Below, piece by piece: positions 23,101 to 45,274 of a stretch of 49,172 nucleotides of DNA. The first letter of the stretch is position 1. Every line of letters starts with the position of its first letter. The stretch comes from Pseudomonadota bacterium (GTDB taxonomy: Bacteria; Pseudomonadota; Gammaproteobacteria; Burkholderiales; Burkholderiaceae_C). Where the stretch lies: positions 1 through 49,172 of the forward strand of contig JAZKIK010000465.1 in NCBI GenBank assembly GCA_040384925.1. Reading direction: 5' to 3'. The translations under genes and the position numbers were made by a program. The notes below the pieces were generated by a model. The model worked only from the letters and a program-made list of their open reading frames with translations. It did no database searches and had not been told where the DNA came from.

Positions 23101-23201
23101 CCGCACTGGCCGAAAGCATGTACAGCGGCGTGGCCTCACAAGGCCAGGGCATTCTGACCGAAACCGATCTGCAGGCCCTGCTGCAACCTCTAGGTGCCTG
23201 A
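20157..23201 (+). CDS. SNF2-family helicase/ATPase with N-terminal SWIM zinc finger
   Basis: CSC....CQH SWIM motif; LRPYQ, LADDMGLGKT, DEAQ, SGTPMEN, SLKAGGVGLNL, WWNP, QATDRAHRIGQ. Confidence 0.93.
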   Translation: MSAAKQTLDPQTLLARVSSAVFEQGLALYRSQQVLECELSRVNRQEWGVVGSVRDSKRELCEVSVVLEASDEGVITFFSGSCSCRVGINCQHSVALAVKATYKAGTIRAAVETGKTASPAAPPAQPPKQLSRANKTAPQSLDMFTIDLFADTAVRPAAKPRAKPKALEPVRARVEKPGLAELLIPEAEPIAPEPPATAAHAAAETCAPAVIPHELLQGITPTAHLHITPVAAESVEQLGLLRASLRFNYKGIFHYALNDHNPVLIERADAQSPSQTTPRLLLQRDLTTERAAHDKLRMFGLAGDTKGQFYLPFISSAQQQQWLQWLDDDFAQLQGSGFVVTTEARLGSWITRADSLDACMVPEGQDLASGAGLMDDGNEDHGASETINAGHSAWFSLSLGMNINGVRRNILPLLPELLAQLSSSSQGKSGGTKVARVPGSTLQLPPHIYLKQDSGGYLRLPCEPLRPWLQALLDLMAERSSHKDGDFKGQALRLSRLEALRVGATLLADSRAATGWQGSDKLREMVSQLAGHSALPQIAAPAGLMAELRPYQLQGLRWLQFLRSNGLGGILADDMGLGKTLQTLAHILTEKNAGRLDLPVLVMAPVSLMGNWRREASRFAPGLSVLVLHGSQRHQAAFGMARYDMVIAPYSLLQRDRERWQAQAWHLVVLDEAQNIKNANSHAAKIVSELNTRHRLCLSGTPMENHLGELWSLFHFLMPGFLGSQARFKALYRTPIEKHQDNERTDWLRQRVTPFMLRRHKRDVATDLPEKQIAISSVELGDSQADLYETIRLATEKTVRDALGNKGLAQSQIQIFDALLKLRQVCCDPRLLALPEAHKARPSAKLELLMELLPEMIAEGRKVLLFSQFTSMLALIEQELETRGMAWAKLTGQSQNREEIIERFTSGAVPLFLISLKAGGVGLNLTQADTVIHYDPWWNPAAETQATDRAHRIGQTQRVMVYKLVAQGTIEERILDLQDRKAALAESMYSGVASQGQGILTETDLQALLQPLGA

Positions 23202-23464
23202 AGATCCGGCAAACAATACATTCTCACGGGCCAGCAGCACAAAACCGGAGCCTGAGGCCAGCAACGGCTTCAGGCGGCCCTCCTCAAAAAGCGCCTGCCA
23301 TGGTTCACCCAGGCTGCGCGCGACGGCTTCGTCGGCCAGCCAGACTTCATCAACAACATCTGCCGGAGCGGAATCACCGGGGCGCTGCAGCACACGGTTT
23401 CGTACTACGGCGTCAATTCCCTTGCTGCTGTCAGCGAGTAGAGGTTTCCACAAATCCAGCGTGG
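23190..23464 (-). pseudogene. Truncated 3' copy of the EthD-like gene; left direct repeat of the island
   Basis: 275 bp colinear with 35436-35710, about 26 mismatches by manual count (~90% identity). Similarity stops abruptly at 23464. Confidence 0.9.
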
Positions 23465-23644
23465 ATGCGGGTGTGTCGGCAAGGTCCAAGGGCAAATGCA
23501 GGAAGGGGTCGGGAGCAGCTTGCTTCAAATACCTGTGGTGCAAGCGCCGCAGGCTTCCTTTTTCCGGTAAAGGCTGGGCTAACATTGCAATTTGTGTCGC
23601 AGGATGTATGGCCGAAAGGCCATCATTGCGTGGAACTGGAGAGC

Positions 23645-24337
23645 ATGTTGATAGCCACTAACCCTTTTAGCCCGAGCGAGTACACCGCCGCCTTGTTGCT
23701 CCATACCCGCCGGCATCCTGGACTGGCCAATCTCGTCAGTGTGCTTGAGATGGGTACCGGCAGCGGCGTCATCATGGCGTCCCTGCTCGCCCGTGGTGCG
23801 CAGCGCGCACTTGGCATAGACATTGAAGCCAGCGCCGTCCAGACCACGCAGGAGTTATTGCGCCAGGAGGGCCTTGATGGCCGCGCGCGGGTTGTTCAGG
23901 GCGACATGTGGCCCGCCTGCAACGGTGAGCAATTCGATCTTGTGATCAGCAACCTGCCTCAGTTTGCGGCCGAACTGTTTGAATCCGATGGCCGTTTGCA
24001 AAGCTGGTGTACGGGCGGACTGGACGGGCGCAAGCTGGTAGACCGGTTCCTGAGTGGCCTGCCCGACCATCTGGCCCCCGGCGGCCTGGCCATCATGACC
24101 CACAACGTCTTTATTGATGTGGCCAGGACCCAGGCCATGCTGGAGCCGTGGGGCTTGCAGGCCAAAATTGTCTATTCAGCCTCAGCCCTGCTGTCGCCGC
24201 AGAAGTTTGAAAAACTCAGCCCCGAGGTGCTTGAGCGCTTCGCCGGCCGCGGCATCCATAAAGTTGGCAGGTATTGGTTTGGTGACTTTGACATTCTTGA
24301 AATCAGCTGGAAGCCTGATGCGCCAACCGGGCGGTGA
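23645..24337 (+). CDS. Class I SAM-dependent methyltransferase (HemK/MTS-like)
   Basis: VLEMGTGSG, GIDI, QGDM, FDLVISNLPQF, GGLDG...LAPGG. ATG 23645 follows GGAG. Confidence 0.85.
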   Translation: MLIATNPFSPSEYTAALLLHTRRHPGLANLVSVLEMGTGSGVIMASLLARGAQRALGIDIEASAVQTTQELLRQEGLDGRARVVQGDMWPACNGEQFDLVISNLPQFAAELFESDGRLQSWCTGGLDGRKLVDRFLSGLPDHLAPGGLAIMTHNVFIDVARTQAMLEPWGLQAKIVYSASALLSPQKFEKLSPEVLERFAGRGIHKVGRYWFGDFDILEISWKPDAPTGR

Positions 24338-26018
24338 AGTATTTCGCGCCGTGCTGCGCGCAGCCGGCTTGCTGGTGGCCGGCCTGTTGTTTGTCGGCCT
24401 GGATGCACTCGCGCAAACTCCTCAAACTCCAGTTAGCAAGCAGTCATCTGGTGGTGAGGCGCGGCTGCCAAAGCTGTCTGGTCCGCCAAATGGCAGTGCC
24501 TGCAATGCTCAGGCTGATGCTTTGGCCCGCGTGTTGTGTACCGGCATTCTCAGGGTGGGCGTGCGTGCGGACTACCCGCCTTACGGCTGGCGTGGAACTG
24601 ATTCGCTGCAGGGCTTTGAGATTGATCTGGCGCGGCAACTTGCCAGCCGGCTGGGCGTAGTTGCCGAGTTCTCGGTAGTGACGGCGGCCAACCGTATCAC
24701 CTTGCTGGGTGAAGGCCGGATCGACCTGGTTGTCGCGACCATGGGCCACACGCTGCAACGGGACCGCGAGGTGCTTTTTGTCAGGCCTCACTATTACCAG
24801 TCGCAAACAATCGTGTTGGGCCGCAAGGACTTTGTGCTGGACAAGACTGAGCCAGTTCGCGGCAAGACAGTTTGCGTCACGCTGGGTAACAGCACCAACG
24901 CCGAGCTTTCTTCCATGGGCGTGCGGCTCATGCTGTTTGACAATGCCTTGCGCCTGCTGGATGAGCTCAGGCTGGGTGCGTGTTCGCTCGCGGCCCAGGA
25001 CGACAGTTTTTTCGCGTCTTATCTGCAGCAGCCGGCATTTTCTGCTGTATACGAGGTGAAGCTGGGGTTTGCGCCGCTTCCCTGGGGCGTAGCGGTTGCA
25101 CGCGAGGGTGGTGGCAAGCTGGCCGAAGCGCTGGCCCTGGCTTTAAAACAGATGCATGCAGGCGGTGGTTTGCAGGCGCTTGCAGCCGTGCATGGGGTTG
25201 ATTCCAGGTTTCTTGCGGATCAGCGTGCTTTATGGAGTGGCAGCCGTTGCGCAGCGGGTCAGGCGCTTGCCGATCCAGGCTGCGTATTGCCGCCACGCGA
25301 CAGCCAATTGGTGCCGACCTCATTTGCCCCAGCCGTCGATACCATTGAAAAGCGCATCAAGGAAGTTACCGGGGCCAAGGTCACGCTGGCGATGTTTAAA
25401 ACCAAGGTGGCGCTTGGCCTCTTCATGGAGGGTATTTTTTTCTCGCTCCTCCTTGTGTCGGGTGCGGTAGCAGCTACCTTGGGCCTGGCGCTGGTCTTTG
25501 GTGCCGCCTTGAGTTCGCGTCATGCCTGGTTGCGCTGGCCCATGCGCTGCCTGCTCTGGGTCATGCAGTCCACGCCCATGATCCTGCTCATGATTCTTGC
25601 CGGCGTGCTGATCAGCGCTTTCGGCGCTATTTCCCCAGTTTCAGCCTTGCTGGGTGCCATTGTGGTGCTGGGGCTGTTTAATGGCAGCAACGCTGGCCAG
25701 GCCATTGCCGAGGCCATGGCCATGTTGAAGGCTGAAAGGCCTGGCGAGTCACCGCCCCCCCTGTTTACAGCAGTCCACCGCTGCAGTGCCCAGGTTGGGG
25801 CTTTTATAGTGAACGCCACGCGCGGTAGTCCAGCGGCATCTGTCATCGGGGTGCCTGAGCTTCTGTCCGCACTGACGGACATCGCATCGTTTTCCAGCGA
25901 GCGGGTTACGACCTACACCTTGCTGCTAGTGTTTTACATGCTGGTGGTTGCGCTGGTGGTTCGCCTGAGCCATGCCTGGCAGGCGCGCCTGGCCCGCAGG
26001 GAGTTTGCTCGTGCCTGA
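24318..26018 (+). CDS. Polar amino-acid ABC substrate-binding domain fused to a HisM/GlnP-type permease domain
   Basis: LRVGVRADYPPYG, GFEIDLARQLA, GRIDLVVATMGHT..R, then TM segments with QSTP and ASVIGVPEL. Start ATG 24318. Confidence 0.85.
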   Translation: MRQPGGEVFRAVLRAAGLLVAGLLFVGLDALAQTPQTPVSKQSSGGEARLPKLSGPPNGSACNAQADALARVLCTGILRVGVRADYPPYGWRGTDSLQGFEIDLARQLASRLGVVAEFSVVTAANRITLLGEGRIDLVVATMGHTLQRDREVLFVRPHYYQSQTIVLGRKDFVLDKTEPVRGKTVCVTLGNSTNAELSSMGVRLMLFDNALRLLDELRLGACSLAAQDDSFFASYLQQPAFSAVYEVKLGFAPLPWGVAVAREGGGKLAEALALALKQMHAGGGLQALAAVHGVDSRFLADQRALWSGSRCAAGQALADPGCVLPPRDSQLVPTSFAPAVDTIEKRIKEVTGAKVTLAMFKTKVALGLFMEGIFFSLLLVSGAVAATLGLALVFGAALSSRHAWLRWPMRCLLWVMQSTPMILLMILAGVLISAFGAISPVSALLGAIVVLGLFNGSNAGQAIAEAMAMLKAERPGESPPPLFTAVHRCSAQVGAFIVNATRGSPAASVIGVPELLSALTDIASFSSERVTTYTLLLVFYMLVVALVVRLSHAWQARLARREFARA

Positions 26019-26631
26019 GCAATTTGCGCAATTTCTGCCAGCCTTCCTGTCCGGGTTGACCATCAATTTCGAGATTGCCATCTGGTCGGTGTTTGGCGGC
26101 TTGCTGCTGGGCTCTCCCCTCGCCATTGCAAGGCTTGCGGGTGGCCCGATAGCCCGTGTTGCAGGCGGGCTGGTGGCGTTTTGCCGTGCCGCTCCTACCT
26201 TTGTCGTGATGTTTTTTCTGGTCAATGTAGTGCCGGCCAGCGTGTCACTGGCCGGCTGGAAGATATCGATGACGCCGTGGCTGGCTGTGGTGCTGTCGCT
26301 GACCGTTTACGGCACCGCCTATGTGTCCGACAACGCCATGGAGCCGATACGCCAGCTGCGCAAGGGCTCGCCGGTGGTGGCGCTGCTGTTCTTGATGAGC
26401 CTGGTGCGCGCGTTTTTTGTGATGGTGCTGTCTTCCGGATTCGGCGCTGCCGTCGGTGTTGTTGAAGCGACGACGGTGACACTGCGCGCCATAGAGCGCA
26501 TGCCGCAAGTAAGTGACCGCCTGATGCTGATTGCCATGGTCATGCTGATGTTCACCGTCATTTTTCAGGCGATTTACCGGCTGATAGATTTTTTACGCCA
26601 CCGCTTGAGTCAACGCCTGGGGCCGGCTTAG
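26011..26631 (+). CDS. Amino-acid ABC permease-like membrane protein (short, EAA loop missing)
   Basis: FLSGLTINFEIA, FCRAAPTFV, AYVSD, AVGVVEA. The GTG start overlaps the upstream stop. Confidence 0.8.
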   Translation: MPEQFAQFLPAFLSGLTINFEIAIWSVFGGLLLGSPLAIARLAGGPIARVAGGLVAFCRAAPTFVVMFFLVNVVPASVSLAGWKISMTPWLAVVLSLTVYGTAYVSDNAMEPIRQLRKGSPVVALLFLMSLVRAFFVMVLSSGFGAAVGVVEATTVTLRAIERMPQVSDRLMLIAMVMLMFTVIFQAIYRLIDFLRHRLSQRLGPA

Positions 26632-26643
26632 CCTCAGCAACAG

Positions 26644-27045
26644 GGCGGCGGTCGTGAATGGCAGCCCAAGGCCGAGCCCGAAAAGCTCAAGGTCCACGAC
26701 TACCTGAGCACCGAACCTGGCAAGGCCATTGCCTATGGCGTTTACGACATCAGCGAGAACCAGGGTTGGGTGAGCGCGGGCATCGACCTCGACACCGCGC
26801 GCTTTGCCGCCAAGGCCATTGGTCAGCCATGAAGTCATCATCAAGCTCATGACCAACACCACGACCGGAACCGGATTGAAAATTCGCGCCGCACCGGACA
26901 CTGGCAACTACCCCACTGGCCTCATCGTTACCGATGAGGAACTGGCCGCGCTGAATCTCAAGCGTGCCGACTTCCACGGTGAATGGAACTACAAGCGGCT
27001 TCCGCTTCGCAAAAAATAATGGTCAACTTATGTTGACGCAAGCCC
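26644..27045 (+). mobile_element. ISAzo13-family transposase remnant (internally deleted) with probable right end
   Basis: GREWQPKAEPEKLKVHDY...GKAIAYGVYDISENQGWVSAGID.DTARFA joins, in another frame, RPLVSHEVIIKL..NTTTGTGLKI...YPTG...FHGEWNY. These are characteristic ISAzo13/Rhodopirellula-type DDE segments. Confidence 0.82.
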
Positions 27046-28668
27046 TTAAGACTTGCCTGCTTCGTTTGCATCAAGCACCATGGTCAGAACATTCCAGTCG
27101 CCATCACGCTGGTAGCGCATATCCGACAGGTAGTTGCGCATCAGGCGGATTCCATGGCCCCCAAGTTCGGCCTCCTGGAGTGATCGGGGCAGTTCACTGG
27201 GCACGTAGGCCCTAGGGTCAAAGGGCATGCCGTTGTCTTGCACCGTGACCGATGCCGTCTTGCCATCGAAGCGATACGCGAGCCGAATTCGGGGTGCCTG
27301 CGAAGCGTCAGACTCACCGGGGCTCGCAAGATGGACAAAACCATGCATCAGGACGTTAGCCACGGCCTCGTCAAGGCAAAGGTTTAGTGCGAAGCATTGC
27401 CGCAGGCTCAAGCGGCTTTCGCTGCTGCGTTCGTCAAGCCAGGCCAGGGCGTCACCCAGCCCTTTTGGTTCGGGCAACATTTCAAAGGTGCTTGAACCGG
27501 CCTCAAGAGCCGGGTAGTCGGATGCAGGCAAAGTCGCAGTCCTGGCTGCCGGTGCCGATGCCGATGCAGCCTGGGTTGAGAAGACTGTATTGAGCGCATC
27601 GCGCACCCCAAGAAAAAAAGGATCATGCTGATACAGCTTCGAGCCATAGGGAATGTTCATGTGTGCATTGACGAACTCCAGCAGCCTGGCCTGCACCTCT
27701 ACGACTGACGCCGAAGCAACTCCTGCCTCAATGGAGTGAATCCGCTCCACAAAACCGCGCACGCCATCCAGATGTGTGGGCAGTAGCCGCAGCTTCCCGT
27801 TATCAATGACCAGATGGCCTTCGCGCCGCAGGTAATTCACCAGAACTTGCGAGCCGATGGCATCGTAGTTGGGTGTCGGTATGCCCTCTACCGAATAGCG
27901 CAGCAGACGCTCGGCCAGGATGAATTCGGTCATCACCGCAACCTTCTCGCTGGGGATCGCCTGGCAATCATTGATGGCGCAAATGGCAAGCATGTCAACC
28001 CGGCATTCTTCGAGGCCGGCGAGTGGTCGGTAAGACTTCATCTGAAGATATTCCGGTACCGGTGCCGGACCCACCCGGTGGAAATGCTCATGCAACCAGA
28101 CCCAGTGAACGCAACTGTCTTCCAGCCCTTCGCGGGCCAGGGTACGCACCAGTTGCAGGGTATCCGCATGCACAAAGTGCTCCAGGATGGGGCGAGTCCG
28201 TCGCAAGTGCCGTGAGACAAACTTGTCGATGAAGTAGAAGATGCTGTCCTGGGTTTCCTGATGGCCGTTCAGGTGATTCTCGGGAAAAAGGGCGACGACC
28301 ACCGGACTCTCGAAACCAACAGTGCAGGCGAGCGTAGTCACAGGCACCACGGGTGAATCAAAATCCAGGCCGTCGTAATGCGGAAGCGCAATCCGCTTGA
28401 ACCGCACGCCGTCCAGCGCCAGCGACGGAAAATACTTGGCGTCGAAAAGTCCGTAAAACTCATCGAAGCGTGCCGAGTTGATAAGTGACTTGTTCTCCTC
28501 ACCGCGCCCCTGCGTGGATGCCGGGTTCACATCCTTCAGCATGGCCTGCTTGAAGTCGTGGGGCAAGTCGGCCGAGGTGATGCACTCGCTCAGGGCATGA
28601 TAATTGCGTTGCGATATCCACTGCATGATCGTCGCAGATGGTGTCACGCTCAATTGCAGACGCTCCAT
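27046..28668 (-). CDS. DUF6421-like HEXXH metalloenzyme domain fused to C-terminal RsbW-type HATPase_c (anti-sigma/Ser kinase) domain
   Basis: WLHEHFH..G, LEECRVD, ERLLRYS..G...NYDAIGSQ; an Ala/Pro linker; then LCLDEAVANVLMHG, QDNGMPFDP, GGHGIRLM, WNVLTM. RBS GGAGG. Confidence 0.78.
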   Translation of the reverse strand: MERLQLSVTPSATIMQWISQRNYHALSECITSADLPHDFKQAMLKDVNPASTQGRGEENKSLINSARFDEFYGLFDAKYFPSLALDGVRFKRIALPHYDGLDFDSPVVPVTTLACTVGFESPVVVALFPENHLNGHQETQDSIFYFIDKFVSRHLRRTRPILEHFVHADTLQLVRTLAREGLEDSCVHWVWLHEHFHRVGPAPVPEYLQMKSYRPLAGLEECRVDMLAICAINDCQAIPSEKVAVMTEFILAERLLRYSVEGIPTPNYDAIGSQVLVNYLRREGHLVIDNGKLRLLPTHLDGVRGFVERIHSIEAGVASASVVEVQARLLEFVNAHMNIPYGSKLYQHDPFFLGVRDALNTVFSTQAASASAPAARTATLPASDYPALEAGSSTFEMLPEPKGLGDALAWLDERSSESRLSLRQCFALNLCLDEAVANVLMHGFVHLASPGESDASQAPRIRLAYRFDGKTASVTVQDNGMPFDPRAYVPSELPRSLQEAELGGHGIRLMRNYLSDMRYQRDGDWNVLTMVLDANEAGKS

Positions 28669-28824
28669 GATTCCTCCAAATAAAAATCATCTGTTGATAT
28701 TCGGTGTAAATATACTTGCAATACACGCAAGGTTTGCGCTTCGATAGATGACGTGTTTGTGCGTGGAGACTTTGCATCCATCTATCGTTGCCGCTCTGTG
28801 ACACCAGAAAAACGAGGTTAACTT

Positions 28825-30540
28825 TTGGCCAATAAATCAGACCGACTACGTTATGGTGCCGATGACCGGCCGCCATGGCGCGTCACCCTTGTCCTGGGTT
28901 TGCAACATGCCTGCCTGGCACTTGTTTTCCTGATATATTCTGTCGCGGCTGCGACAGCCATTGGGTTTTCCCCTCATCAGACCACTGCGTTTCTTACCGG
29001 GTGCATAGTTGCCATGGCCATTGGGGCCTTTCTGCAACCCTTGCGCCCGCCATTTGGAAGCGGCGCGCTCGCGGTTTACATTCCATCCCCCCTGATGCTG
29101 CCTGCGATCATCCAGGCGGGACTCACCGGGGGCCTGAGCCTGATCGCCGGTATGACCATACTGATGGGCGCCACCGTACTGAGCCTGGGTCGCCTTTTGC
29201 GCCACCTGCGCGTCCTGTTCCCGGCAGAAGTCTGTGGAGTTGTCATCCTGATGCTGGGGATTGCCATCGCCTCACCTGCACTAAAGCATGCGACAGGCGC
29301 CAGCTTCGGTCCCGACGGGCAAATACATGGCCTCAACTACCAGCACATGCTGGTTGCGGCAGGAACGCTGGTCGGCATCATGGTGGTCACGGTTTTTGCC
29401 CGCGGTGCCATCAAGCTGTTTGCTCTTGCCCTGGGGCTGGCTATCGGCGTCGTGTTATCGCTGGCCGTTGGGCTATTTGACGCTGCGGCATTGGCGCGTC
29501 TTGATGCCACTGCGTGGTTTGGCTGGCCGCAGCTTGAATTTGTCATGCCGACTCTTGACCTGTCACTCATTCCGCTTGTGGTGGTCCTGGCCATCTTCAA
29601 TGGTATTGACACTGTTGGCGTCATGATAGGCATACAGCGCATGGTCGATCCCGATTGGAAAAAAATCGACACCACGCAGTGCGCTGGCGGTGTCCAGGCC
29701 AGCGGGATGGCTGATGTCTGCGCAGGGGTTCTAGGCGGCATGCCGGGCGGCGTGTCGTCAGCGCATATGGGCCTGGTCTTTGCGACCGCCACGGCATCAC
29801 GAATCGTCGGGACCTGTACTGCCGGTGTGCTGCTGATGGCAGCCTTCACACCAAAAATCGTAGCGGTCCTGATGATGCTGCCGCCACCTGTCGTGGGCGC
29901 CATCATGATCTACACTGCGGCACACATGCTGGTGGCGGGCATGGAGCTTGTCCAGTCGCGCATGTACAGCGAACGCCGCATGCTCACCATTGGCCTGTCT
30001 ATCCTTGCAGGCCTGACCCCGCTGATCTTGCCCGGCTATTTCGGAAAGATGTCGCCACTCGTGGCACCCATCTTCGAGTCAAGTCTGGCGATCTCCGCAT
30101 TGGTAGCAATTGGGCTGAACCTTATATTCCGCCTGGGCATCGCACAAGAGGCATCAGTGATGATTCCGCGCCAAAGCGCGGGGCACGAGGCGGCAGGCGA
30201 GTTCCTGGATGAGATGGGCAAGGTCTGGGGCGCACGCCACGACGTCGTGCGCAGGGCCAAACAAGCCACCAGCGAAGTGATCGAGATTGCCAGCGCCATC
30301 AATCCAGAGGGCGAGGTCAAGCTTGAGGCGCGCTACGACGAACTGAATCTGTATGTCACGGTAGGCTATGACGGAACAGTGCTTGAGTTCCCGACCGAGT
30401 TGTCCAAAAGTGAGGACGGCTTGGGTGAAGACCAGAACCTGTTCCAGTTCGCAGGCTTTATCGTTCGCAAGCTGGCTGATTCCCTATCGCAAACATCCGA
30501 CGGTATCCGTCATCGGCTGGTGCTTCGCTTCGAGCACTGA
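28825..30540 (+). CDS. NCS2/SLC23 xanthine-uracil permease family protein with C-terminal soluble HATPase-like extension
   Basis: LRYGADDRPP, LGLQH, LFPAEVCGVVI, P.PVVGA, a multi-pass hydrophobic core, and a ~130-aa hydrophilic tail ending GFIVRKLADSL...RLVLRFEH. Confidence 0.85.
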   Translation: MANKSDRLRYGADDRPPWRVTLVLGLQHACLALVFLIYSVAAATAIGFSPHQTTAFLTGCIVAMAIGAFLQPLRPPFGSGALAVYIPSPLMLPAIIQAGLTGGLSLIAGMTILMGATVLSLGRLLRHLRVLFPAEVCGVVILMLGIAIASPALKHATGASFGPDGQIHGLNYQHMLVAAGTLVGIMVVTVFARGAIKLFALALGLAIGVVLSLAVGLFDAAALARLDATAWFGWPQLEFVMPTLDLSLIPLVVVLAIFNGIDTVGVMIGIQRMVDPDWKKIDTTQCAGGVQASGMADVCAGVLGGMPGGVSSAHMGLVFATATASRIVGTCTAGVLLMAAFTPKIVAVLMMLPPPVVGAIMIYTAAHMLVAGMELVQSRMYSERRMLTIGLSILAGLTPLILPGYFGKMSPLVAPIFESSLAISALVAIGLNLIFRLGIAQEASVMIPRQSAGHEAAGEFLDEMGKVWGARHDVVRRAKQATSEVIEIASAINPEGEVKLEARYDELNLYVTVGYDGTVLEFPTELSKSEDGLGEDQNLFQFAGFIVRKLADSLSQTSDGIRHRLVLRFEH

Positions 30541-30627
30541 TGCGACTGGCGGGCGGGCGAGACACCGCACCCAAGCTGACGGTATCGGGCCCAACTGAGC
30601 CCGTTCCGGTACTGCCATGAACACGTT

Positions 30628-30975
30628 CTAGGAAGCGACTTTGGCGACTGCCTCAGCCTCGGTGCCGACCACCGTGATCAAGCGGGTCAGGCCGCTGACG
30701 TCGAATACTTCCTTGACGTTCGGATTCACGCCGCACAGCGCCAGCTTGACCGGGGCGGATTTGGCTGAGCGGGCGGCCACAAGAAAGGCCCGAAGGCCCG
30801 CGCTGGAGATGTAGTCGATACCCGCACAATTGACTACCAGCCCCAGTCCGGCCGATTGCGCCTGGGAAACCACGCTTTCCAGATCCGCCTGGAAAGCGGC
30901 TGACGCGCTGTAGTCGATCCGGCCCGTAGGCCGGACAATAAGGGTGCTGCCTGTGTTTTCGCTTGGAATGGTCAT
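30628..30975 (-). CDS. STAS-domain anti-sigma-factor antagonist (RsbV/SpoIIAA-like)
   Basis: GRID, IDYISSAGLR (phospho-acceptor Ser motif), VKEVFDVSGL. Confidence 0.93.
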   Translation of the reverse strand: MTIPSENTGSTLIVRPTGRIDYSASAAFQADLESVVSQAQSAGLGLVVNCAGIDYISSAGLRAFLVAARSAKSAPVKLALCGVNPNVKEVFDVSGLTRLITVVGTEAEAVAKVAS

Positions 30976-31014
30976 ATTGGTGGTCTGTGCTGGAATTTGT
31001 CTTGAGGTGGATTT

Positions 31015-31662
31015 TCAGTGCATGAACATCAGGGCTTGCGCCTGGATCTGATAGTTCTCGCGGATGGCCGCCTCGACCTCGCGCACGATCAGGTCAACGC
31101 CGCCGACCAGGTCCAGCCTTGCGGACAAGCGGGATATTTCGTCGGTGGCCATGAAACCCTGGAGCAGATCACCCACGCGGGCCAGCCCGATCAGGGCCGT
31201 GTCATGCGGCGTTGGAAGGCCCAGGTTCAACAAGGTGGCGAGGATGCGCAACTTGGCCTCCTTTTGCTCTTGCCCGTCAATCACAGGATAGCGCCGCGAA
31301 TTGAACACCCACAGAAACTGCGTCTGAGCGGTTTTCAGGATGCCGCGCTTGACCAGTTCGGACAGGGTAAGCTTTACAAGAGACTGCGATTCCCTCTGGG
31401 TGTTGATCAGCCAGCGGGAAACCGGCATTCCTCCGCCAGGATGAATCTTGCTCAAGACCCAATCGAGGTGCGCCAGGCCCGTGGGCTCGGAGGACAACAG
31501 CGTCAGTTCCTTGAGATCGGCATCAATCCGGCCGCGAATGTTCAAGTCAATCAGGCAGGCCCCGAACAGCGCGAGGATGAAGCCTGCATTGCCCGCCGTA
31601 TAAGCGATTTTTCCGTCATCTTCAACGGCCAGCAAAACCAATTCTTCTGCAAGTGATGTCAT
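31015..31662 (-). CDS. GPP34/GOLPH3-VPS74 family protein
   Basis: SLAEELVLLA..DDG, GACLIDL...GRI, LVKRGIL....FLWVF..RRYP..DG, DTALIGL. Confidence 0.8.
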   Translation of the reverse strand: MTSLAEELVLLAVEDDGKIAYTAGNAGFILALFGACLIDLNIRGRIDADLKELTLLSSEPTGLAHLDWVLSKIHPGGGMPVSRWLINTQRESQSLVKLTLSELVKRGILKTAQTQFLWVFNSRRYPVIDGQEQKEAKLRILATLLNLGLPTPHDTALIGLARVGDLLQGFMATDEISRLSARLDLVGGVDLIVREVEAAIRENYQIQAQALMFMH

Positions 31663-31792
31663 TTGAATACCTTCTTACGTTCTTGCGGCAGTCATACTGG
31701 CTGGCATTCTACATTCTGCAACCTTTGTCCAAAAGCTGAATTTGCCGAGGCACAATGGAAGCAAACATCGATCCCGACCACAGGCTCAGCGC

Positions 31793-32257
31793 ATGACAGA
31801 ACCCAAGCCCAGTGCCGCACCATCCACCCATTCGCTAGTCTTGAACGGCTCGCTCAGCGAATTGCCGCGTGCCATGGCCTGGATCGAAGGGCAGCTTGAG
31901 GCCCTTGACATGCCGACGCGCGCCGCTTACGGCTTGACGCTGAGTGTTGACGAGGCCCTGGTCAACGTGATGACGCACGGATTCGGCAACCCGGCCGGCG
32001 GCCAGACACCGATGGAGGAAGGGCAAGGTCAAGTCCAGCTTCGCTGTGAACCTCGGGAAGGGCATGTAATGGTCCAGATCCTCGACAACGGTCCCGCCTT
32101 CGACCCCACCCAGCACGCACCGGCTGATCTGGCAGATGACATGGGCGAGGCCCGCATAGGAGGACACGGCGTTCGCCTGATGATGCATTTTCTGTCCGAG
32201 CTCAGTTATGAGCGGCAGGGCGAGTGGAACATCCTGACCCTGGTGTCCGGAAAATGA
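31793..32257 (+). CDS. RsbW-like anti-sigma factor / Ser-Thr kinase (HATPase_c_2)
   Basis: LSVDEALVNVMTHG, LDNGPAFDP, IGGHGVRLM, WNILTL. Confidence 0.9.
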   Translation: MTEPKPSAAPSTHSLVLNGSLSELPRAMAWIEGQLEALDMPTRAAYGLTLSVDEALVNVMTHGFGNPAGGQTPMEEGQGQVQLRCEPREGHVMVQILDNGPAFDPTQHAPADLADDMGEARIGGHGVRLMMHFLSELSYERQGEWNILTLVSGK

Positions 32258-34332
32258 GTACCGCCTTGCCTCCGGCCGCCTCGGCTCCCCGGTTCTTTCG
32301 GGATTACAACCGGGTGATCTCGGTGGCCTATGCGCTCATCCTTTTTGGTTTGCTGCTGTTCTTCTCCCTCCAGCTTCGGCAGCGGTATAACGAAGAGCTT
32401 GCGGTCATCGAAACCCAGGTTGCGCGGCATGGCGAGTTTCTTGAGTTCGTCCTGCGCTCATCGACAGACCAGCTGGAGTCCTTGCGAATGATCGCCGGCT
32501 CCGACACCCGCAGCGCACGGCGCTGCATGCAGGGCGGCAATGCGCGCGCCTTTCCCGACCTCCGGGAGGTCGCTGGCGGCTTCAACCGCGACGCCATCCA
32601 GGACAAGGACCTGGGGGGCAATCTGGTTGGGCTCGGCCGTCTGGTGGGACGCCATGGCGATTTTTATTGTGACATTGCCGCCGCAATGGGGCTCAACGGC
32701 AGCCTGCAAGGCATGACATTCAGTCTGCCCAGTGTCGCGCGGGCCCGCTTCATTTCTGCCCACGGATTCCATCTGGTTTCGCCGTGGCGCCCCTCAGCCG
32801 ACCTGCCCTTCAACTCCGCCAGCCTGAGCGATCCGGTCTGGCGGCTTGGTACCCCCGATGCCGACCCTGACCGGTCCAGATACTGGATTCCACCGTATTT
32901 CGCTGGCGAGCAGGCTGGCCTGCTCGCGCCGGTCGCGGCACCGGTCTACGACGGTCAGCGATTCATGGGCGTCATCGTGCTTGACTTCAGCCTCGACTAT
33001 CTCAATCGGATCAACTCCGACTTTGCCTACCCGCTGGGGAGCGTCGCTGTCATTGACGCGGGTGGTCGCGTGCTTGCACACCCGCAGCTTTACCGCGACC
33101 CGCTGATCGTACGCGAGCCGCCCACCATTCAGCAGCTTCTTGCCACCGAAGTATCCGCAGCAACAAAGACCACGATCGACGCCCTTGCCGAAGGCCGGGT
33201 CGAGAGCGTTGGTGATGCCCTGCTGCTGCGCCAGCGCTTCGTCTCGGCGCCCTGGCAATTGCTTTACAGCGTGCCCAGGTACACCCTGTGGCTCAAGCTG
33301 CTGAAAGAGCACGGCGCCAGCATGGCCGCAGTGTTTGCAGGCCTGGCCCTGCTCATGGCCGTGACCTATGTTTTAACGTCCCGGCTCTTCGTCGGGCCAG
33401 CAGCCAAGCTGGTCGACCACCTGGTTGCGGAATCCGTCGAGCAACCACGGCCCGTCCCTGCGGTTCCTTCAACATGGCGACCCTGGTTTGAGGCCATCAC
33501 AAAAGCCTTTCGCCAGTCCCTGCAGCTCAGCAGCCTGCGCCGGGAAGTTGACATCGCAGCCCGGCTGCAGCAATCCATCCTGCCGCGCCGCTGGCCCAGT
33601 GATCCACGCTTCCAGCTCTGGGGCACCATGCTCCCCGCCAAGGACGTGGGCGGCGACTTCTACGACCACTTTGTCGTGGGCGATGGCCTGCGGGGCATCG
33701 TGGTTGCCGATGTCAGCGGCAAGGGCATCTCGGCAGGTTTGTTCGGCATGGTTTCCAAGACCCACCTGCGCGCGGTCGCCACGCGCACCTCGGTCGGGCC
33801 GGGAGCCATGGTGACGCTGGCCAACAAAGCGCTTTGCGCGGACGGCGAAAACGAGAACTGCATGTTCCTGACGCTGCTCTACGCGCAGTACGACCCCGCC
33901 AGCGGCATCGCGGTTTGTGTAAACGCTGGCCATCCGTCGCCGCTTCTGGTTCATGCCGACGGACGCATTCGCTGGTTGCCAACAAGTACGTGTCCGATGA
34001 TGGGGATCATGGACGACATCGACTATGAAGAGTCGGTCGTCCAGCTGGTCCCCGGCGACACCCTGTTGCTGTTCACCGACGGTGTGACCGAGGCCATGAA
34101 TGCACAGCGTGAAGAGTTCAGCGAGCCGCGACTGGCCAGCTTGTTCGACGGCCAGCCAACCACCTCACCCGAGGAAACAATCCAGCGGGTCCTGGACGCC
34201 GTGAGCGCCTTTGCCCAGGCCGAGGAGCAGTTCGACGACATCACCTGCGTGGCATTGCGATGCGTGGCGCTGGACCAGACCGCCAGCCTTGCAGCCGCTG
34301 GCGAGACCACAGGAGGCGGGCATGCGATCTAG
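32254..34332 (+). CDS. Membrane sensor phosphatase: periplasmic Cache domain plus SpoIIE/RsbU PP2C domain
   Basis: TM, then Cache motifs (YWIPPYF...APVYDG.RFMGVI.LD; GRVLAHP), TM, then AARLQQSILP, VGGDFYD, ADVSGKG, NAGHP, FTDGVTEA, DDIT. ATGA overlap with the RsbW-like gene. Confidence 0.92.
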   Translation: MSTALPPAASAPRFFRDYNRVISVAYALILFGLLLFFSLQLRQRYNEELAVIETQVARHGEFLEFVLRSSTDQLESLRMIAGSDTRSARRCMQGGNARAFPDLREVAGGFNRDAIQDKDLGGNLVGLGRLVGRHGDFYCDIAAAMGLNGSLQGMTFSLPSVARARFISAHGFHLVSPWRPSADLPFNSASLSDPVWRLGTPDADPDRSRYWIPPYFAGEQAGLLAPVAAPVYDGQRFMGVIVLDFSLDYLNRINSDFAYPLGSVAVIDAGGRVLAHPQLYRDPLIVREPPTIQQLLATEVSAATKTTIDALAEGRVESVGDALLLRQRFVSAPWQLLYSVPRYTLWLKLLKEHGASMAAVFAGLALLMAVTYVLTSRLFVGPAAKLVDHLVAESVEQPRPVPAVPSTWRPWFEAITKAFRQSLQLSSLRREVDIAARLQQSILPRRWPSDPRFQLWGTMLPAKDVGGDFYDHFVVGDGLRGIVVADVSGKGISAGLFGMVSKTHLRAVATRTSVGPGAMVTLANKALCADGENENCMFLTLLYAQYDPASGIAVCVNAGHPSPLLVHADGRIRWLPTSTCPMMGIMDDIDYEESVVQLVPGDTLLLFTDGVTEAMNAQREEFSEPRLASLFDGQPTTSPEETIQRVLDAVSAFAQAEEQFDDITCVALRCVALDQTASLAAAGETTGGGHAI

Positions 34333-35212
34333 CAAAATACGCACGCTGGCTGCACTGGCCCTGGCGGTTGTCCTGGTGCAAATGGCTCCATGGGCCTGCG
34401 CCGACACACTGGACGATATACAGCGTCGCGGCACCCTGGTGATCGGGGTGAAAAAGGACGTGCCCTTGTGGGGTCTGGCCAAGGGCACGACCGGCGTGCC
34501 CGAAGGCCTGGAGCCCGACCTGGCGGCCGACCTGGCGGCGCGGCTGGGTGTCCGGCTGAAGCTGGTGGGATTGCTGTCTGCGGAGCGCAACGACGCGCTT
34601 GAACGCCGGCGCGTTGATCTGCTCATTGCCACGCTGTCCGACACGCCAGAGCGGCGCCAGCGGATGACGCTGGCCGTCCCGCACTACTACGCTTCGGGCG
34701 TCAACATACTGGCGCGCAAGGACGCAAAGTTTCGCGATTGGCCTGACCTGCGCAACCGCCGCGTGTGCGGACGGCTGGGCGCGTTCTACAACCGCCAGAT
34801 CACCGTGGCCTACGGCATAGACGTCGTCGCCCTTTATAACAACCAGCTTTCGATGTCAGCACTGCGCGACGGCCGCTGTGCGGCCCTGCTCTATGACGAC
34901 ACCAATATCGTCGCCCTGATGCAGGACGCCGCCTGGGCAGGCAACTTCGAGATGCCACTGAAGTCCCTGCACCTTACACCCTGGTCGGTCGCACTGCACG
35001 CGGCTGATCGCGGAGGCAGGCTGGAAACCGCCGTGTCGGATGCGATCATCGACTGGCACCGAAGCGGACTGATTGTGCGGCTCGAACGCAAGTGGCAGAT
35101 TCCGGCGTCCCCTTTCACCGTCCACATGAATGCGGTCTGGAGCCGTCGCACAGGCACCAGCTTTTATTGTGGCGACCGGGTCGGCCCACAGACGCCAAAG
35201 GATTGCCTGTAA
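34322..35212 (+). CDS. Polar amino-acid ABC substrate-binding protein (family 3)
   Basis: Signal peptide, DTLDDIQRRGTLVIGVK.D.P.WG, GLEPDLAADLA, VDLLIATLSDTPER. Start ATG 34322. Confidence 0.9.
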   Translation: MRSSKIRTLAALALAVVLVQMAPWACADTLDDIQRRGTLVIGVKKDVPLWGLAKGTTGVPEGLEPDLAADLAARLGVRLKLVGLLSAERNDALERRRVDLLIATLSDTPERRQRMTLAVPHYYASGVNILARKDAKFRDWPDLRNRRVCGRLGAFYNRQITVAYGIDVVALYNNQLSMSALRDGRCAALLYDDTNIVALMQDAAWAGNFEMPLKSLHLTPWSVALHAADRGGRLETAVSDAIIDWHRSGLIVRLERKWQIPASPFTVHMNAVWSRRTGTSFYCGDRVGPQTPKDCL

Positions 35213-35275
35213 AGCAGCTGAAACCCGGCAAACAAGGCCCGGATTAGTGGCGTATCACCAGCTTGGGCCGGCTAG

Positions 35276-35435
35276 GGATGCTCTGCATAACCCTCGCGGT
35301 CCTGTGGCAGTCGGATTGGGATGGGCTGCAAGGCGTCTTTTTGCAGCCAATAGTATGCCTATTGGCAAGAAAAGCAACGCAGCAGACCGCCCGAGCCCGG
35401 CTGATCACAGACCGCAGGGAGTTATGCAGACATCC
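35276..35435. mobile_element. 160-bp MITE-like element with terminal inverted repeats and CTAG flanks (IS5-like)
   Basis: CTAG|GGATGCTCTGCATAACCC... and ...GAGTTATGCAGACATCC|CTAG form imperfect IRs of about 30 bp. No transposase inside. Confidence 0.7.
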
Positions 35436-36158
35436 CTAGGAGCCTGAAGACCCGGCAAACAAGACATTCTCACGGGCCAGCAGTACAAAACCGGAGCCAG
35501 AGGCCAGCAGCGGCTTCAGGCGCCCCCCTTCAAAAAGCGCCTGCCATTGTTCACCCAGGCTGCGCGCAGCGGCTTCGTCGGCCAGCCAGACTTCATCAAC
35601 AACATCTGCCGGAGCCGAATCACCGGGGCGCTGCAGCACACGGTTTCGTACTACAGCGTCGATGCCGTGGCCAGCGTCAGCGAGCAGCGCTTTCCATAAA
35701 TCCAGCGTGGTCTCAGCCAGCACATCTGCGGCCACACCCGATGCACGCTGATGAAACACAAACAACTTGCTGCTGCCTCGCTTGCTTCCTTTGGTGAAGA
35801 CCTCTTCAGGCGCTACTGGCAGCTTGACCACACTGGCCTGATCCACAAAATTGTCTTCATCGGGCTGCAGTTGCTCCAGGTAAAACGCGGTCTGGGTGGC
35901 TGCGGCTGCCTGGGCCGGGCTTTCAAACCAGACCTGGGTGACAAAGTCACGGGCGACGGCAAACGGATCTGGCGCTGCACCCGGCCCCCGAAAGCTGCTG
36001 TCAAACACATGGTTTTGCACATACCGCTGCGGCATCAGGCCGGGGTCAGTCGCAATACCGGCGACCACGGCGGTGCCGTGAACATCCAGCATATAGCGGT
36101 GCAGTTGCGTTACGGTCATACCGCCACGGCGGCGGCCCACAATCATCAGTTTCAGCAT
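35436..36158 (-). CDS. EthD-domain protein (two dimeric alpha/beta-barrel repeats); its 3' end is the right direct repeat
   Basis: KLMIVGRRRGGMT..QLHRYMLDVHG, RYVQNH, DFVTQVWF, LQPDEDNFVD. Confidence 0.8.
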   Translation of the reverse strand: MLKLMIVGRRRGGMTVTQLHRYMLDVHGTAVVAGIATDPGLMPQRYVQNHVFDSSFRGPGAAPDPFAVARDFVTQVWFESPAQAAAATQTAFYLEQLQPDEDNFVDQASVVKLPVAPEEVFTKGSKRGSSKLFVFHQRASGVAADVLAETTLDLWKALLADAGHGIDAVVRNRVLQRPGDSAPADVVDEVWLADEAAARSLGEQWQALFEGGRLKPLLASGSGFVLLARENVLFAGSSGS

Positions 36159-36186
36159 AGGTTTTCCGGGTCAAAAAAAGTGTTGC

Positions 36187-37149
36187 TCATGCAGCCATGG
36201 CCTGCCGTATCAAATCAGCCAGACTGCCGTCATCGACAAAACCCAGACTGCGCGAATACGGTGTGCTCAAGGTCGGCAAACGGCCAAAAAGCGTTTCAAT
36301 CACTTCATTGGGGTGGTAGCTCAGGTTTGCTGGATGGCCGGTCAGTTGCTCGATAGCTGCCACCAGTTCACCCACCGTGGCTGTCAGCACCGGCAATTGA
36401 AGGCAAGGTCCGGCTTGCAGTTGCTCCGCAGGCAAACGGGCGGCATGCAGCAGGTTGTTGACGCAACAGGCCAGCGACATCCACCAGCAGCTCGCTGCTG
36501 CGGAAACCGGGCAGTCATACACCTCACCCGGCTCATCCGTCATCAGGCTGCGGATCAGGTCACTCATAAAGGCCGAGCCGTGGCCAGTGGGTGAACGAGG
36601 CCTGGCCACAATGCCGGGCAGACGCAAGGAAACACCATCAAGCAGGCCCTGTCGGCTCAGGTCGGCCAGCAGGATTTCGGTCATGCGTTTGTGCGCACCG
36701 TAACTTAGCGCGGGCCGGGCCGGGCAGGACTCATCCACCACCCCTTCAGTTGGCAAGGCACCGTAAACCGCCACGGAGCTGGCAAAAACCACACGTGGCG
36801 GACTGCTTTTGTCAGCCAGGCGCTGCAGCAAGCTGATGGGTGCCAGCAGATTGACCTGCAAGCCCAGTGCCTGCTCACGTTCTGCCAGGCTGCCGGGCAC
36901 ACTGGCGAGGTGAAACACCCAGTCCGGGCGCTGCGCCAGGGCGCTGTCCAGCAGCACGCGGTCGGCAAAGTCACCTTCAAGCAACGACACGCGTTGGTCA
37001 ACACGCCAGCTTTCGGCACCTGGCCCAAAACGCTGGTCAATGGCAGTCAGCCGTGTGAGTGCAAAAGGCGTTGCCGCAACATCTGTCAACAAGCGCTGCA
37101 CCAGCGCCTGCCCCACAAAACCACCAGCCCCAGTCACCAGAACATGCAT
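36187..37149 (-). CDS. NAD-dependent epimerase/dehydratase (extended SDR)
   Basis: VTGAGGFVG, FHLAS, FASSVAVYG, YGAHK, SLRLP. Confidence 0.88.
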   Translation of the reverse strand: MHVLVTGAGGFVGQALVQRLLTDVAATPFALTRLTAIDQRFGPGAESWRVDQRVSLLEGDFADRVLLDSALAQRPDWVFHLASVPGSLAEREQALGLQVNLLAPISLLQRLADKSSPPRVVFASSVAVYGALPTEGVVDESCPARPALSYGAHKRMTEILLADLSRQGLLDGVSLRLPGIVARPRSPTGHGSAFMSDLIRSLMTDEPGEVYDCPVSAAASCWWMSLACCVNNLLHAARLPAEQLQAGPCLQLPVLTATVGELVAAIEQLTGHPANLSYHPNEVIETLFGRLPTLSTPYSRSLGFVDDGSLADLIRQAMAA

Positions 37150-38147: not shown

Positions 38148-38162
38148 TTTTTGACTCCCGTT

Positions 38163-38972: not shown

Positions 38973-38976
38973 CGTT

Positions 38977-41488: not shown

Positions 41489-41518
41489 TTTTTGTCTCCT
41501 TGTTTTTTCAGCGCAGCA

Positions 41519-42667: not shown

Positions 42668-42702
42668 GATGTTGTCTCGCTAAAAACTTGCTTGTCTATT
42701 TG

Positions 42703-43038: not shown

Positions 43039-43049
43039 GATTTGGCGGG

Positions 43050-44024: not shown

Positions 44025-44043
44025 GAGTTCTCCTTGAATGGTT

Positions 44044-45225: not shown

Positions 45226-45274
45226 GATAAGAACTCCAGAAAAAATCAATCAAAAAACCGAAACCTTCGACAAG

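What the first reader, a model, noticed from the sequence alone, without database searches (positions are those of the whole stretch)
23465..35275. Partner-switching island with no sigma factor, apparently wired to an enzyme and transporters
Seen: one ~12 kb block encodes a Cache-PP2C phosphatase, an RsbW-like kinase, a STAS protein with DYISSAGLR, a GPP34-like protein, two more RsbW-type domains fused to a HEXXH enzyme and to an NCS2 permease, two amino-acid binding domains, two permeases with no ATPase, and a methyltransferase. No sigma factor or DNA-binding regulator is present. Established: RsbU/RsbV/RsbW-type modules usually control a sigma factor. Inference: here the STAS protein may switch between three HATPase-type partners, so a periplasmic ligand would control an enzyme and a transporter post-translationally. 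The methyltransferase and HEXXH enzyme might make or modify that ligand, giving a self-contained signalling circuit. I do not recognise this combination as a described system.
Basis: partly seen in the sequence, partly recalled or inferred. Interest (0 to 1): 0.9.

Follow-up and report, generated by a model that had tools for sequence, protein, structure and literature searches.

The report
Sigma-less phosphoswitch wired to repurposed transporters
This 12-kb island joins a bacterial kinase/phosphatase/STAS switch, with no sigma factor beside it, to a permease ending in a dead copy of the kinase, an amino-acid pump pair that has lost its motor-docking loops and a PolE-type oxidase fused to an intact kinase domain, so the switch likely acts on membrane proteins by docking rather than on transcription.

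Summary
All ten genes are real. The block is a mosaic of two recurrent modules and one rare fusion.

Module A: an NCS2 permease whose tail has the RsbW/SpoIIAB fold but has lost the ATP-binding motifs. It lies near STAS, RsbW and PP2C genes in 52 of 80 related loci, and near a sigma factor in 1 of 80. A model docks the island's STAS phospho-site Ser58 on this tail (0.62, best control 0.00; like complexes are solved).

Module B: methyltransferase, SBP3-permease and permease. Both permeases have lost the ATPase-coupling loop. In a genome sample such pairs had an ATPase in 0 of 11 loci and a signalling enzyme in 8 of 11 (intact pairs: 14 of 15 and 1 of 15). A and B are joined in 10 other loci, where the permease is fused to RsbW.

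The 'HEXXH enzyme' is a PolE-family Fe/pterin oxidase with an intact RsbW kinase domain; only 3 other fused clusters were found.

Self-made ligand is unsupported: the oxidase is missing from all 80 loci. No function has been tested. Not found in print in my searches; earlier scan notes saw A and B separately.

The parts
23179..23464 (-). Left copy of a 286-nt direct repeat: the last 92 codons of the EthD-like gene, overlapping the stop of the SNF2 helicase gene; left boundary of the island
   Evidence: 13 synonymous and 9 non-synonymous codon differences from the right copy
23645..24337 (+). HemK2/N6AMT1-like class I methyltransferase (NLPQF motif), module B
   Evidence: orthologs directly upstream of the permease pair in L139, L141, L148, L150, L151, L159
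24318..26018 (+). SBP_bac_3 fused to polar-amino-acid permease 1 (566 aa); coupling-loop segment 54 aa against 66 in canonical permeases
   Evidence: start matches a database protein
26011..26631 (+). Permease 2 (206 aa) with a 20-residue deletion of the EAA/coupling helix; fused to RsbW in Kaistia-type loci
26632..27019 (+). ISAzo13-family transposase remnant (two pieces, internal deletion) between modules B and A
   Evidence: Pfam PF07592, E 8.6e-18 and 3.1e-12; single copy in the genome
27046..28668 (-). PolE-family (DUF6421) Fe/pterin-type oxidase fused to an intact RsbW-type kinase domain (540 aa)
   Evidence: H193/E194/H197/E220-221 and the residues aligned to PolE F140, Y157 and Y280 are kept
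28825..30540 (+). NCS2/SLC23 permease with a rebuilt substrate site and a C-terminal pseudo-RsbW domain (residues 438-571)
30628..30975 (-). STAS protein; Ser58 aligns with SpoIIAA Ser58
31015..31662 (-). GPP34-family protein, co-oriented with STAS; function unknown in free-living bacteria
   Evidence: a 52% ortholog lies between a Na/Pi cotransporter and STAS-RsbW in G540; another follows the PP2C in L145
31793..32257 (+). Stand-alone RsbW-type serine kinase with N-box, G1 and G2 intact
32254..34332 (+). Membrane dCache_1-PP2C (SpoIIE) phosphatase; the dCache lacks the YxxxxRxW amino-acid motif
34322..35212 (+). Free SBP_bac_3 with signal peptide, overlapping the PP2C stop
35270..35440 (.). 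~170-nt imperfect palindromic element, many copies elsewhere in the genome
35425..35710 (-). Right copy of the direct repeat, within the intact EthD-like gene (35436-36158)

Best explanation
The island is a mosaic, likely horizontally acquired, in which a PP2C/STAS/RsbW phospho-switch with no linked sigma factor likely acts by docking its STAS protein on the dead RsbW-like tail of an NCS2-fold membrane protein, with input likely from an ABC-derived permease pair that has lost its ATPase-docking loops.

Shown by sequence or computation: gene content; RsbW fold and loss of ATP motifs in the NCS2 tail; loss of UraA H245/E290 equivalents; coupling-loop deletions in both permeases; recurrent linkage of these parts.

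Predicted: STAS Ser57/Ser58 sits on tail residues E484 and A543-I546.

Inferred: ligand binding by the SBPs, the permease pair and/or the dCache domain sets PP2C activity. RsbW, and perhaps the oxidase-fused kinase, phosphorylates Ser58. Unphosphorylated STAS would bind the tail and switch transport of a non-nucleobase solute, and phosphorylation would release it. This works like the STAS domain of SulP/SLC26 transporters supplied in trans.

The PolE-RsbW fusion is a lineage-specific add-on: a second kinase or STAS partner that would tie an amino-acid oxidase to the same switch. The methyltransferase most likely modifies a component of the permease-pair complex rather than making the ligand.
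For: NCS2 tail fold: model pLDDT 86. Top structural matches are UsfX (Z 15.2, rmsd 2.0, 117 aligned), SpoIIAB (Z 15.0) and RsbW (Z 14.4); Foldseek E 6.6e-8; hhalign 94.6%.

Lost kinase motifs: N-box Asn in 6 of 89 tails, G1 Asp column Y/H, no GGxG. By contrast Asn is kept in 58 of 58 and GGxG in 58 of 58 RsbW domains. Surface residues W468, E484/E487, D505-E506 and G517 are near-invariant.

Docking model: 0.62, best of 3 controls 0.00; the mark was reached by 116 of 157 solved and 2 of 215 mismatched pairs; runs agree in at least 89% of contacts; partner pLDDT at least 78.

Linkage of module A: STAS 58, RsbW 57, PP2C 55 and all three 52 of 80 loci, which is 15 of 27 hand-made genus-level groups (my count). 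Sigma-70 hit in 1 of 80. The tail family has 609 clusters at E<=1e-3.

Permease 2: the segment is 45 aa in the window and in 120 of 120 family members, against 65 aa in 15 of 15 canonical permeases of the same genome. Permease 1: 49-57 aa against 66.

Sampled loci: deleted type has an ATPase within 1.5 kb in 0 of 11, a cyclase/kinase/PP2C in 8 of 11 and a methyltransferase in 9 of 11; intact type 14, 1 and 1 of 15 (kin not independent).

A and B are joined in 10 loci with permease-RsbW fusions; 15 of 120 listed family members carry HATPase_c_2.

The tailed NCS2 was found in 0 of 203 other genomes of the genus.
Against: No binding, phosphorylation or transport has been measured. The docking pass may reflect likeness to solved SpoIIAA-SpoIIAB and RsbV-RsbW complexes (one search says so), and the STAS was folded without an alignment.

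28 of 80 NCS2-tail loci lack the full triad nearby (some on short contigs), and 23 of 80 fall in my Ancylobacter-centred group.

The window's closest module-B relatives (window-type methyltransferase) lie by dCache cyclases (4 of 6), a kinase (1) or a TAXI-like protein (1), not a STAS switch. An IS remnant separates B from A here, so B may be an orphan neighbour.

The genome has 15 sigma-70 hits and a second STAS-RsbW pair on C526, so a sigma target in trans is not excluded. One plasmid NCS2-tail gene lies near an ECF sigma with its own ChrR anti-sigma.
Confidence: 0.5

Rival explanations
1. Transceptor direction: the tailed NCS2 is an input, not an output. Solute binding changes how much STAS the tail sequesters, and free STAS or RsbW then controls a target elsewhere (a sigma factor, or an unknown protein as for SypA or BtrV).
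For: The substrate and proton site is degenerate: UraA E290 is never E/Q (0 of 89), H245 is not H among the commonest residues, and E241 is D in 65 and K in 16. No common effector gene recurs in the loci. Switches with unlinked or unknown targets are described (PMC8256260). The genome has 15 sigma-70 hits.
Against: The loci already carry a dedicated sensor PP2C (dCache, HAMP or REC). Other transporters (Na/Pi in 32 of 80) and carbonic anhydrase (8 loci, 7 groups) recur, as expected for a transport output.
Confidence: 0.27
2. Chance mosaic: modules A and B and the PolE fusion were assembled by mobile DNA. Only A works as a unit here; B has lost its cognate cyclase and the oxidase fusion is incidental.
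For: IS remnant at the A/B junction. Bounding repeat. Closest B relatives lie by cyclases. A close relative's B genes and A genes are on contigs of different length, 12302 and 8416. DUF6421 in 0 of 80 loci.
Against: A and B are joined in 10 other loci, and B with PP2C in 3 more (L143-L145). GPP34 follows B plus PP2C in L145. The PolE-RsbW fusion is intact at 78-92% identity in 3 other clusters and adjacent to the tailed NCS2 (consecutive accessions HSH92312/HSH92313; shared contig lengths 8416 and 28750). Its kinase falls in the same supported clade as the island's RsbW.
Confidence: 0.15
3. One reading: the oxidase and methyltransferase make a modified amino acid that is exported, bound by the SBPs and sensed by the PP2C (autoinducer-like).
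For: PolE desaturates L-Ile (PMC12614342) and the active-site residues are kept. Both SBPs are of the polar-amino-acid family. A methyltransferase almost always accompanies the deleted permease pair (9 of 11).
Against: The oxidase is absent from the loci where the rest recurs (0 of 80; none in the module-B loci). The methyltransferase is closest to protein N5-glutamine methyltransferases, and two unrelated methyltransferase types fill the slot. No exporter is present.
Confidence: 0.08

Closest known systems
RsbU-RsbV-RsbW-sigmaB and SpoIIE-SpoIIAA-SpoIIAB-sigmaF partner switches (PMC8256260; PDB 1TH8, 1TIL, 6M36, 8IH8)
   Same: PP2C, a STAS with the Ser58-equivalent, and an RsbW kinase with intact motifs; the NCS2 tail has the same fold
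   Different: No linked sigma factor (1 of 80 related loci); extra RsbW domains fused to a permease (dead) and to an oxidase (intact)
Non-canonical STAS switches: Vibrio SypE/SypA, Bordetella BtrU/V/W, Chlamydia RsbU/V/W (PMC8256260 parts 1-2); Pseudomonas SiaABC (NCBIfam and PDB 6KKO matches; its role is recalled)
   Same: Sensor phosphatase, kinase and STAS with a non-sigma or unknown output; extracellular ligand sensing by the phosphatase (Chlamydia)
   Different: None is described with a transporter carrying a pseudo-RsbW docking domain or with an ATPase-less ABC-derived pair
NCS2/NAT/SLC23 transporters (UraA, UapA, SVCT1) and SulP/SLC26 with fused STAS
   Same: NCS2 core; related 14-TM fold shared with SLC26 (PMC5539350 abstract), whose STAS is fused
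   Different: UraA H245 and E290 are replaced; carries an RsbW-like tail that would recruit a separate, phosphorylatable STAS
PolE / DUF6421 Fe- and pterin-dependent oxidases (PMC12614342; PDB 9J2E, 9J3G)
   Same: E 6.6e-76; TM 0.86 of target, rmsd 2.4; HExxH-x22/23-E motif and F140/Y157/Y280 equivalents kept
   Different: Fused to an RsbW kinase domain; no PolF-like or other biosynthetic genes in the island; substrate untested
Polar amino-acid (PAAT) ABC importers, HisQMP/GlnPQ type, including SBP-fused forms
   Same: SBP_bac_3 plus two HisM/GlnP-type permeases
   Different: Both coupling loops are shortened and no ATPase gene is present; linked to a methyltransferase and signalling enzymes
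SupE permease of sponge-symbiont sup clusters (PMC3908369, Table row)
   Same: A 557-aa permease followed by an anti-anti-sigma gene; an earlier scan note places SupE in the tailed family
   Different: Named only as 'permease'; no RsbW-like tail or mechanism in the passages read; I did not test its homology

Membership tests
Canonical sigma-controlling partner switch (Rsb/SpoII) | PP2C + STAS with phospho-serine + HATPase_c_2 kinase with N, G1 and G2 boxes | tested here: met
Canonical sigma-controlling partner switch (Rsb/SpoII) | Cognate sigma factor encoded with the switch | tested here: not met
   none in the island; 1 of 80 related loci, using a profile built from this genome's sigma factors
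Canonical sigma-controlling partner switch (Rsb/SpoII) | RsbW binds a sigma factor in trans | not testable with these tools
   15 sigma-70 hits in the genome; needs a pull-down
RsbW/SpoIIAB kinase (NCS2 tail) | RsbW-type fold | tested here: met
RsbW/SpoIIAB kinase (NCS2 tail) | ATP-binding N-box Asn, G1 Asp, G2 GGxG | tested here: not met
   pseudokinase
RsbW/SpoIIAB kinase (oxidase-fused domain) | N-box, G1 and G2 motifs | tested here: met
   EAVAN, DNG and GGHG in the window and in P0001-P0003
NCS2/NAT nucleobase:H+ symporters | NCS2 core with TM1 QH motif | tested here: met
   (below the NCBIfam pbuX and ncs2 cut-offs)
NCS2/NAT nucleobase:H+ symporters | UraA E241/H245/E290 substrate and proton residues | tested here: not met
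   D262/V266/A313; E/Q at E290 in 0 of 89; roles from PMC5539350
PolE/DUF6421 Fe/pterin oxidases | HE/DxxH-x(21-23)-E motif and PolE fold | tested here: met
PolE/DUF6421 Fe/pterin oxidases | Fe-, O2- and pterin-dependent amino-acid oxidation | not testable with these tools
   a PTPS-family gene is in the genome; activity needs an assay
PAAT ABC importer | EAA coupling helix in the permeases and a linked ATPase | tested here: not met
dCache_1AA amino-acid sensors | YxxxxRxW...Y...D motif | tested here: not met
   window pocket lacks the N-terminal Y and R, read by eye; motif from PMC8915833

The most novel reading that the evidence does not exclude
A complete signalling circuit with no transcriptional step, built from repurposed transporters. 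An ABC importer that lost its ATPase became a ligand receptor for a membrane phosphatase. An SLC23-fold carrier is gated in trans by a phosphorylatable STAS docking on its dead kinase tail. The RsbW domain serves as a portable STAS socket that evolution has fused to permeases, phosphatases and, here, a PolE-type oxidase to put them under the same switch.
Probability: 0.3. Interest if true: 0.87.

Novelty: new variant of a known kind. Interest (0 to 1): 0.72.

Why it matters
Partner switches are known mainly as sigma-factor regulators, and in several Proteobacteria their output is unknown (PMC8256260). This island and its relatives name concrete, testable outputs and inputs.

Output: a family of over 600 sequence clusters of NCS2 carriers with a pseudo-RsbW tail. 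If STAS gates them, that parallels in trans the fused STAS of SLC26 transporters.

Input: a class of ABC permease pairs with a precise loss of the ATPase-coupling loop that sit beside cyclases, kinases and PP2Cs.

The PolE-RsbW fusion would be a case of a newly described oxidase family coupled to phospho-signalling.

My ten literature searches found no paper on these architectures. Earlier AI notes of this scan had already flagged modules A and B separately, so the new points here are their union, the permease-RsbW and PolE-RsbW fusions, and the GPP34 link.

Tried and rejected
1. Single-protein scan of GTDB with the NCS2 found nothing; the alignment scan then gave 80 of 130 confirmed loci.

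2. The metagenome scan with the DUF6421 alignment returned 17 stand-alone loci and none of the fused relatives, so the neighbourhoods of P0001-P0003 are inferred from accession order and contig length only.

3. Empty-site search: the EthD-like gene was found in 0 of 40 relatives and 0 of 203 genus genomes, so the insertion mechanism is open; no integrase gene is in the island.

4. The idea that the IS cut an RsbW domain off permease 2 was rejected: a close relative's permease 2 has the same 206 aa.

5. The idea that the NCS2 imports pterin for the oxidase was considered and has no support beyond adjacency in four records.

6. The island's PP2C sensor region is only weakly like the cyclase sensors beside module B (best E 1.4e-4 over about 57 residues), so it is not a simple output swap.

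7. The promoter/terminator scan was at chance level. GC and GC3 do not set the island apart.

8. Plasmid search: permease 2 no match, NCS2 tail 2 records.

9. phmmer of RsbW against PDB sequences gave no anti-sigma alignment, so sigma-binding residues were not compared.

11. The RsbW tree (30 rows, a chosen subset of the 58 RsbW domains plus 5 others) puts the island's RsbW and the oxidase-fused domain in one supported 12-row clade but does not resolve them as sisters.

Full report
Observation. ORF listing and family scans confirm the ten genes. From left to right: methyltransferase, SBP3-permease, permease, then on the other strand DUF6421-HATPase_c_2, then NCS2 permease, STAS and GPP34 (minus strand), RsbW, dCache_1-SpoIIE and a free SBP3. 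Starts were refined against database proteins. The block is bounded by a 286-nt, 89% direct repeat that is the 3' end of an EthD-like gene, with 13 synonymous and 9 non-synonymous codon differences. It holds an ISAzo13 remnant between the permease pair and the oxidase gene. The tailed NCS2 was found in 0 of 203 other genomes of the genus and in 9 of 300 of the family, so the island is sporadic. No empty site could be found. A contig of run X1, possibly the source, spans 26517-32037 with one difference.

Module A: the switch core. The STAS Ser58 aligns with SpoIIAA Ser58, the position mutated in PDB 1TID. The free RsbW and the oxidase-fused domain keep the N-box, G1 and G2 motifs. The 134-residue NCS2 tail has no Pfam hit, but its model (pLDDT 86) matches UsfX, SpoIIAB and RsbW best (Z 15.2, 15.0, 14.4; Foldseek), and profile alignment to RsbW gives 94.6%. 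The ATP motifs are gone: Asn at the N-box position in 6 of 89 tails, Y or H at the G1 Asp, no GGxG, against 58 of 58 for Asn and GGxG in the RsbW set. A profile finds 609 clusters at E<=1e-3 and 333 at 1e-10. Among the best 150, every protein of 250 aa or more also has the NCS2 core.

Module A: the permease core and the docking model. In the core, UraA E241/H245/E290, essential for uracil binding and proton coupling (PMC5539350, passages), become D262/V266/A313. No homolog of 89 has E or Q at E290. A complex model places STAS Ser57/Ser58 on tail residues E484 and A543-I546. Score 0.62, best of 3 controls 0.00; the mark was reached by 116 of 157 solved and 2 of 215 mismatched pairs; runs agree in at least 89% of contacts; partner pLDDT at least 78. 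Like complexes are solved, so this shows likeness rather than binding.

Module A: neighbourhoods. Of 130 confirmed GTDB loci the best 80 were kept. STAS lies within 10 kb in 58, RsbW in 57, PP2C in 55, all three in 52, and a Na/Pi cotransporter in 32. That is 15 of 27 genus-level groups by my hand count; 23 loci fall in one Ancylobacter-centred group. A profile from this genome's sigma factors hits 1 of 80 loci. RsbW there is free, fused to the PP2C, or fused to a permease. DUF6421, GPP34 and the window-type methyltransferase were found in 0 of 80. The host genome has 15 sigma-70 hits and a second STAS-RsbW pair, but no other PP2C or tailed NCS2 (87% complete).

Module B: the deletions. Both permeases lack the ATPase-coupling loop. 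The segment between fixed anchors in permease 2 is 45 aa in the window and in 120 of 120 listed family members, against 65 aa in 15 of 15 canonical permeases of the same genome. For permease 1 it is 54 aa (49-57 in relatives) against 66.

Module B: neighbourhoods. Two 400-genome samples gave 6 and 25 non-centre hits, of which I fetched 6 and 20. Eleven were of the deleted type and 15 intact. Within 1.5 kb, deleted loci had an ABC ATPase in 0, a cyclase, kinase or PP2C in 8, and a methyltransferase (within 300 nt) in 9. Intact loci had 14, 1 and 1 (related genomes are not independent). The six loci with the window's methyltransferase type lie by dCache adenylate/guanylate cyclases (L141, L150, L151, L159), a hybrid kinase (L148) or a TAXI-like gene (L139). 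In 10 Kaistia/Bosea/Mesorhizobium/Zavarzinia loci the pair is followed by PP2C, STAS, tailed NCS2 and a different methyltransferase, and permease 2 is fused to RsbW. L143-L145 have B plus PP2C, and L145 adds GPP34. So the union of A and B recurs, although here an IS scar separates them. The methyltransferase is closest to HemK2/N6AMT1. The island's dCache lacks the amino-acid motif of PMC8915833 (passages), which fits sensing through an accessory SBP (inference).

The oxidase fusion. DUF6421 is the PolE family of Fe/pterin-dependent oxidases; PolE desaturates L-Ile (PMC12614342, passages). The window protein matches PolE at E 6.6e-76 with the metal motif and F140/Y157/Y280 equivalents kept, and its model overlays PolE structures (TM 0.86 of target, rmsd 2.4). 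Of 120 listed homologs, 3 carry the kinase domain (92, 81, 78%). Records with consecutive accessions or equal contig lengths put the fusion beside the tailed NCS2 in three of them, with STAS and GPP34 also on the 8416-nt contig. None of 17 stand-alone DUF6421 loci has switch genes. It is therefore a recent, lineage-limited recruit.

GPP34. It was found in 5 of 400 class genomes. The closest (52%) lies in a Na/Pi-GPP34-STAS-RsbW operon, and others are fused to MFS or P450 domains. PMC11706023 (passages) leaves its role in non-symbionts open.

Mechanism. Best reading (0.5): ligand sensed by the SBPs, the permease pair and the dCache-PP2C sets STAS-Ser58 phosphorylation against RsbW. Free STAS docks on the dead tail and switches the NCS2 carrier. 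The oxidase-fused kinase is a second partner. Gene content, folds, motif losses and linkage are shown; docking is predicted; direction, ligand and cargo are inferred. Rivals: the NCS2 as a sensor feeding an unlinked target (0.27); a chance mosaic with B orphaned (0.15); the self-made-ligand loop (0.08).

Literature. Ten searches were run. DUF6421 gave 1 paper. NCS2+STAS+anti-sigma gave 0. HATPase_c_2+permease+SpoIIE gave 0. The accessory-SBP/dCache/PP2C query gave 0. The EAA-loss query gave 1 unrelated listing. Searches gave listings with no description of these architectures in titles or abstract starts. I read parts 1-2 of 5 of PMC8256260 and a table row naming the SupE permease beside an anti-anti-sigma gene (PMC3908369). 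No supplements were read, and the library lacks most subscription papers. Earlier AI notes of this scan describe module A and module B in other genomes. They are not independent support and were seen after my own tests of each module; none covered the PolE-RsbW fusion or GPP34.

Verdict. This is a new variant of partner switching with undescribed parts; interest 0.72.

Noticed in passing
window 35270-35440: ~170-nt imperfect palindromic element with full-length copies at 92-98% on at least six other contigs and many partial ones; MITE/REP-like
   Followed up: partly
window 23179-23464 and 35425-35710: Diverged duplicate of the EthD-like gene's 3' end; the left copy overlaps the helicase stop, which suggests insertion by single crossover; empty site not found
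   Followed up: partly
G000 C349:3691-4373 (-): Frameshifted paralog (55-57%) of the island methyltransferase with no permease pair on that contig
   Followed up: partly
G000 C526:483-1582 (-): Second STAS-RsbW pair without a PP2C or sigma factor nearby; possible cross-talk
   Followed up: partly
L059:12170-12997, L083:12529-13296: Beta-carbonic anhydrase lies between two tailed NCS2 paralogs (8 loci, 7 groups); 16 of 89 tailed NCS2 have Lys at the UraA E241 position, a hint of anion or bicarbonate cargo
   Followed up: no
L133:7404-14692 (G540:C33): Operon of Na/Pi cotransporter, GPP34, STAS, RsbW, ABC binding protein, a 431-aa protein with N-terminal STAS, permease and ATPase: another switch-plus-transporter unit
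   Followed up: partly
L135:5607-7511; L136:7012-9024: GPP34 fused to an MFS transporter, and to a cytochrome P450 next to a sterol-methyltransferase-like gene
   Followed up: no
L146, L147, L149: SBP-fused permease pairs of the same lineage with intact coupling loops, two with a nearby ATPase and methyltransferase (L146 also with RsbW, PP2C, STAS): likely resemble the ancestor of module B
   Followed up: partly
L021:4340-7571: Two tandem reverse-transcriptase genes and a beta-lactamase-fold gene beside a tailed NCS2 locus
   Followed up: no
window 35436-48852: Adjacent catabolic-looking operon (EthD, epimerase, FAA hydrolase, cyclase, SDR, cupin, MFS, FAD monooxygenase, glyoxalase, MMPL); its EthD gene was found in no other genome of the genus searched
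   Followed up: no
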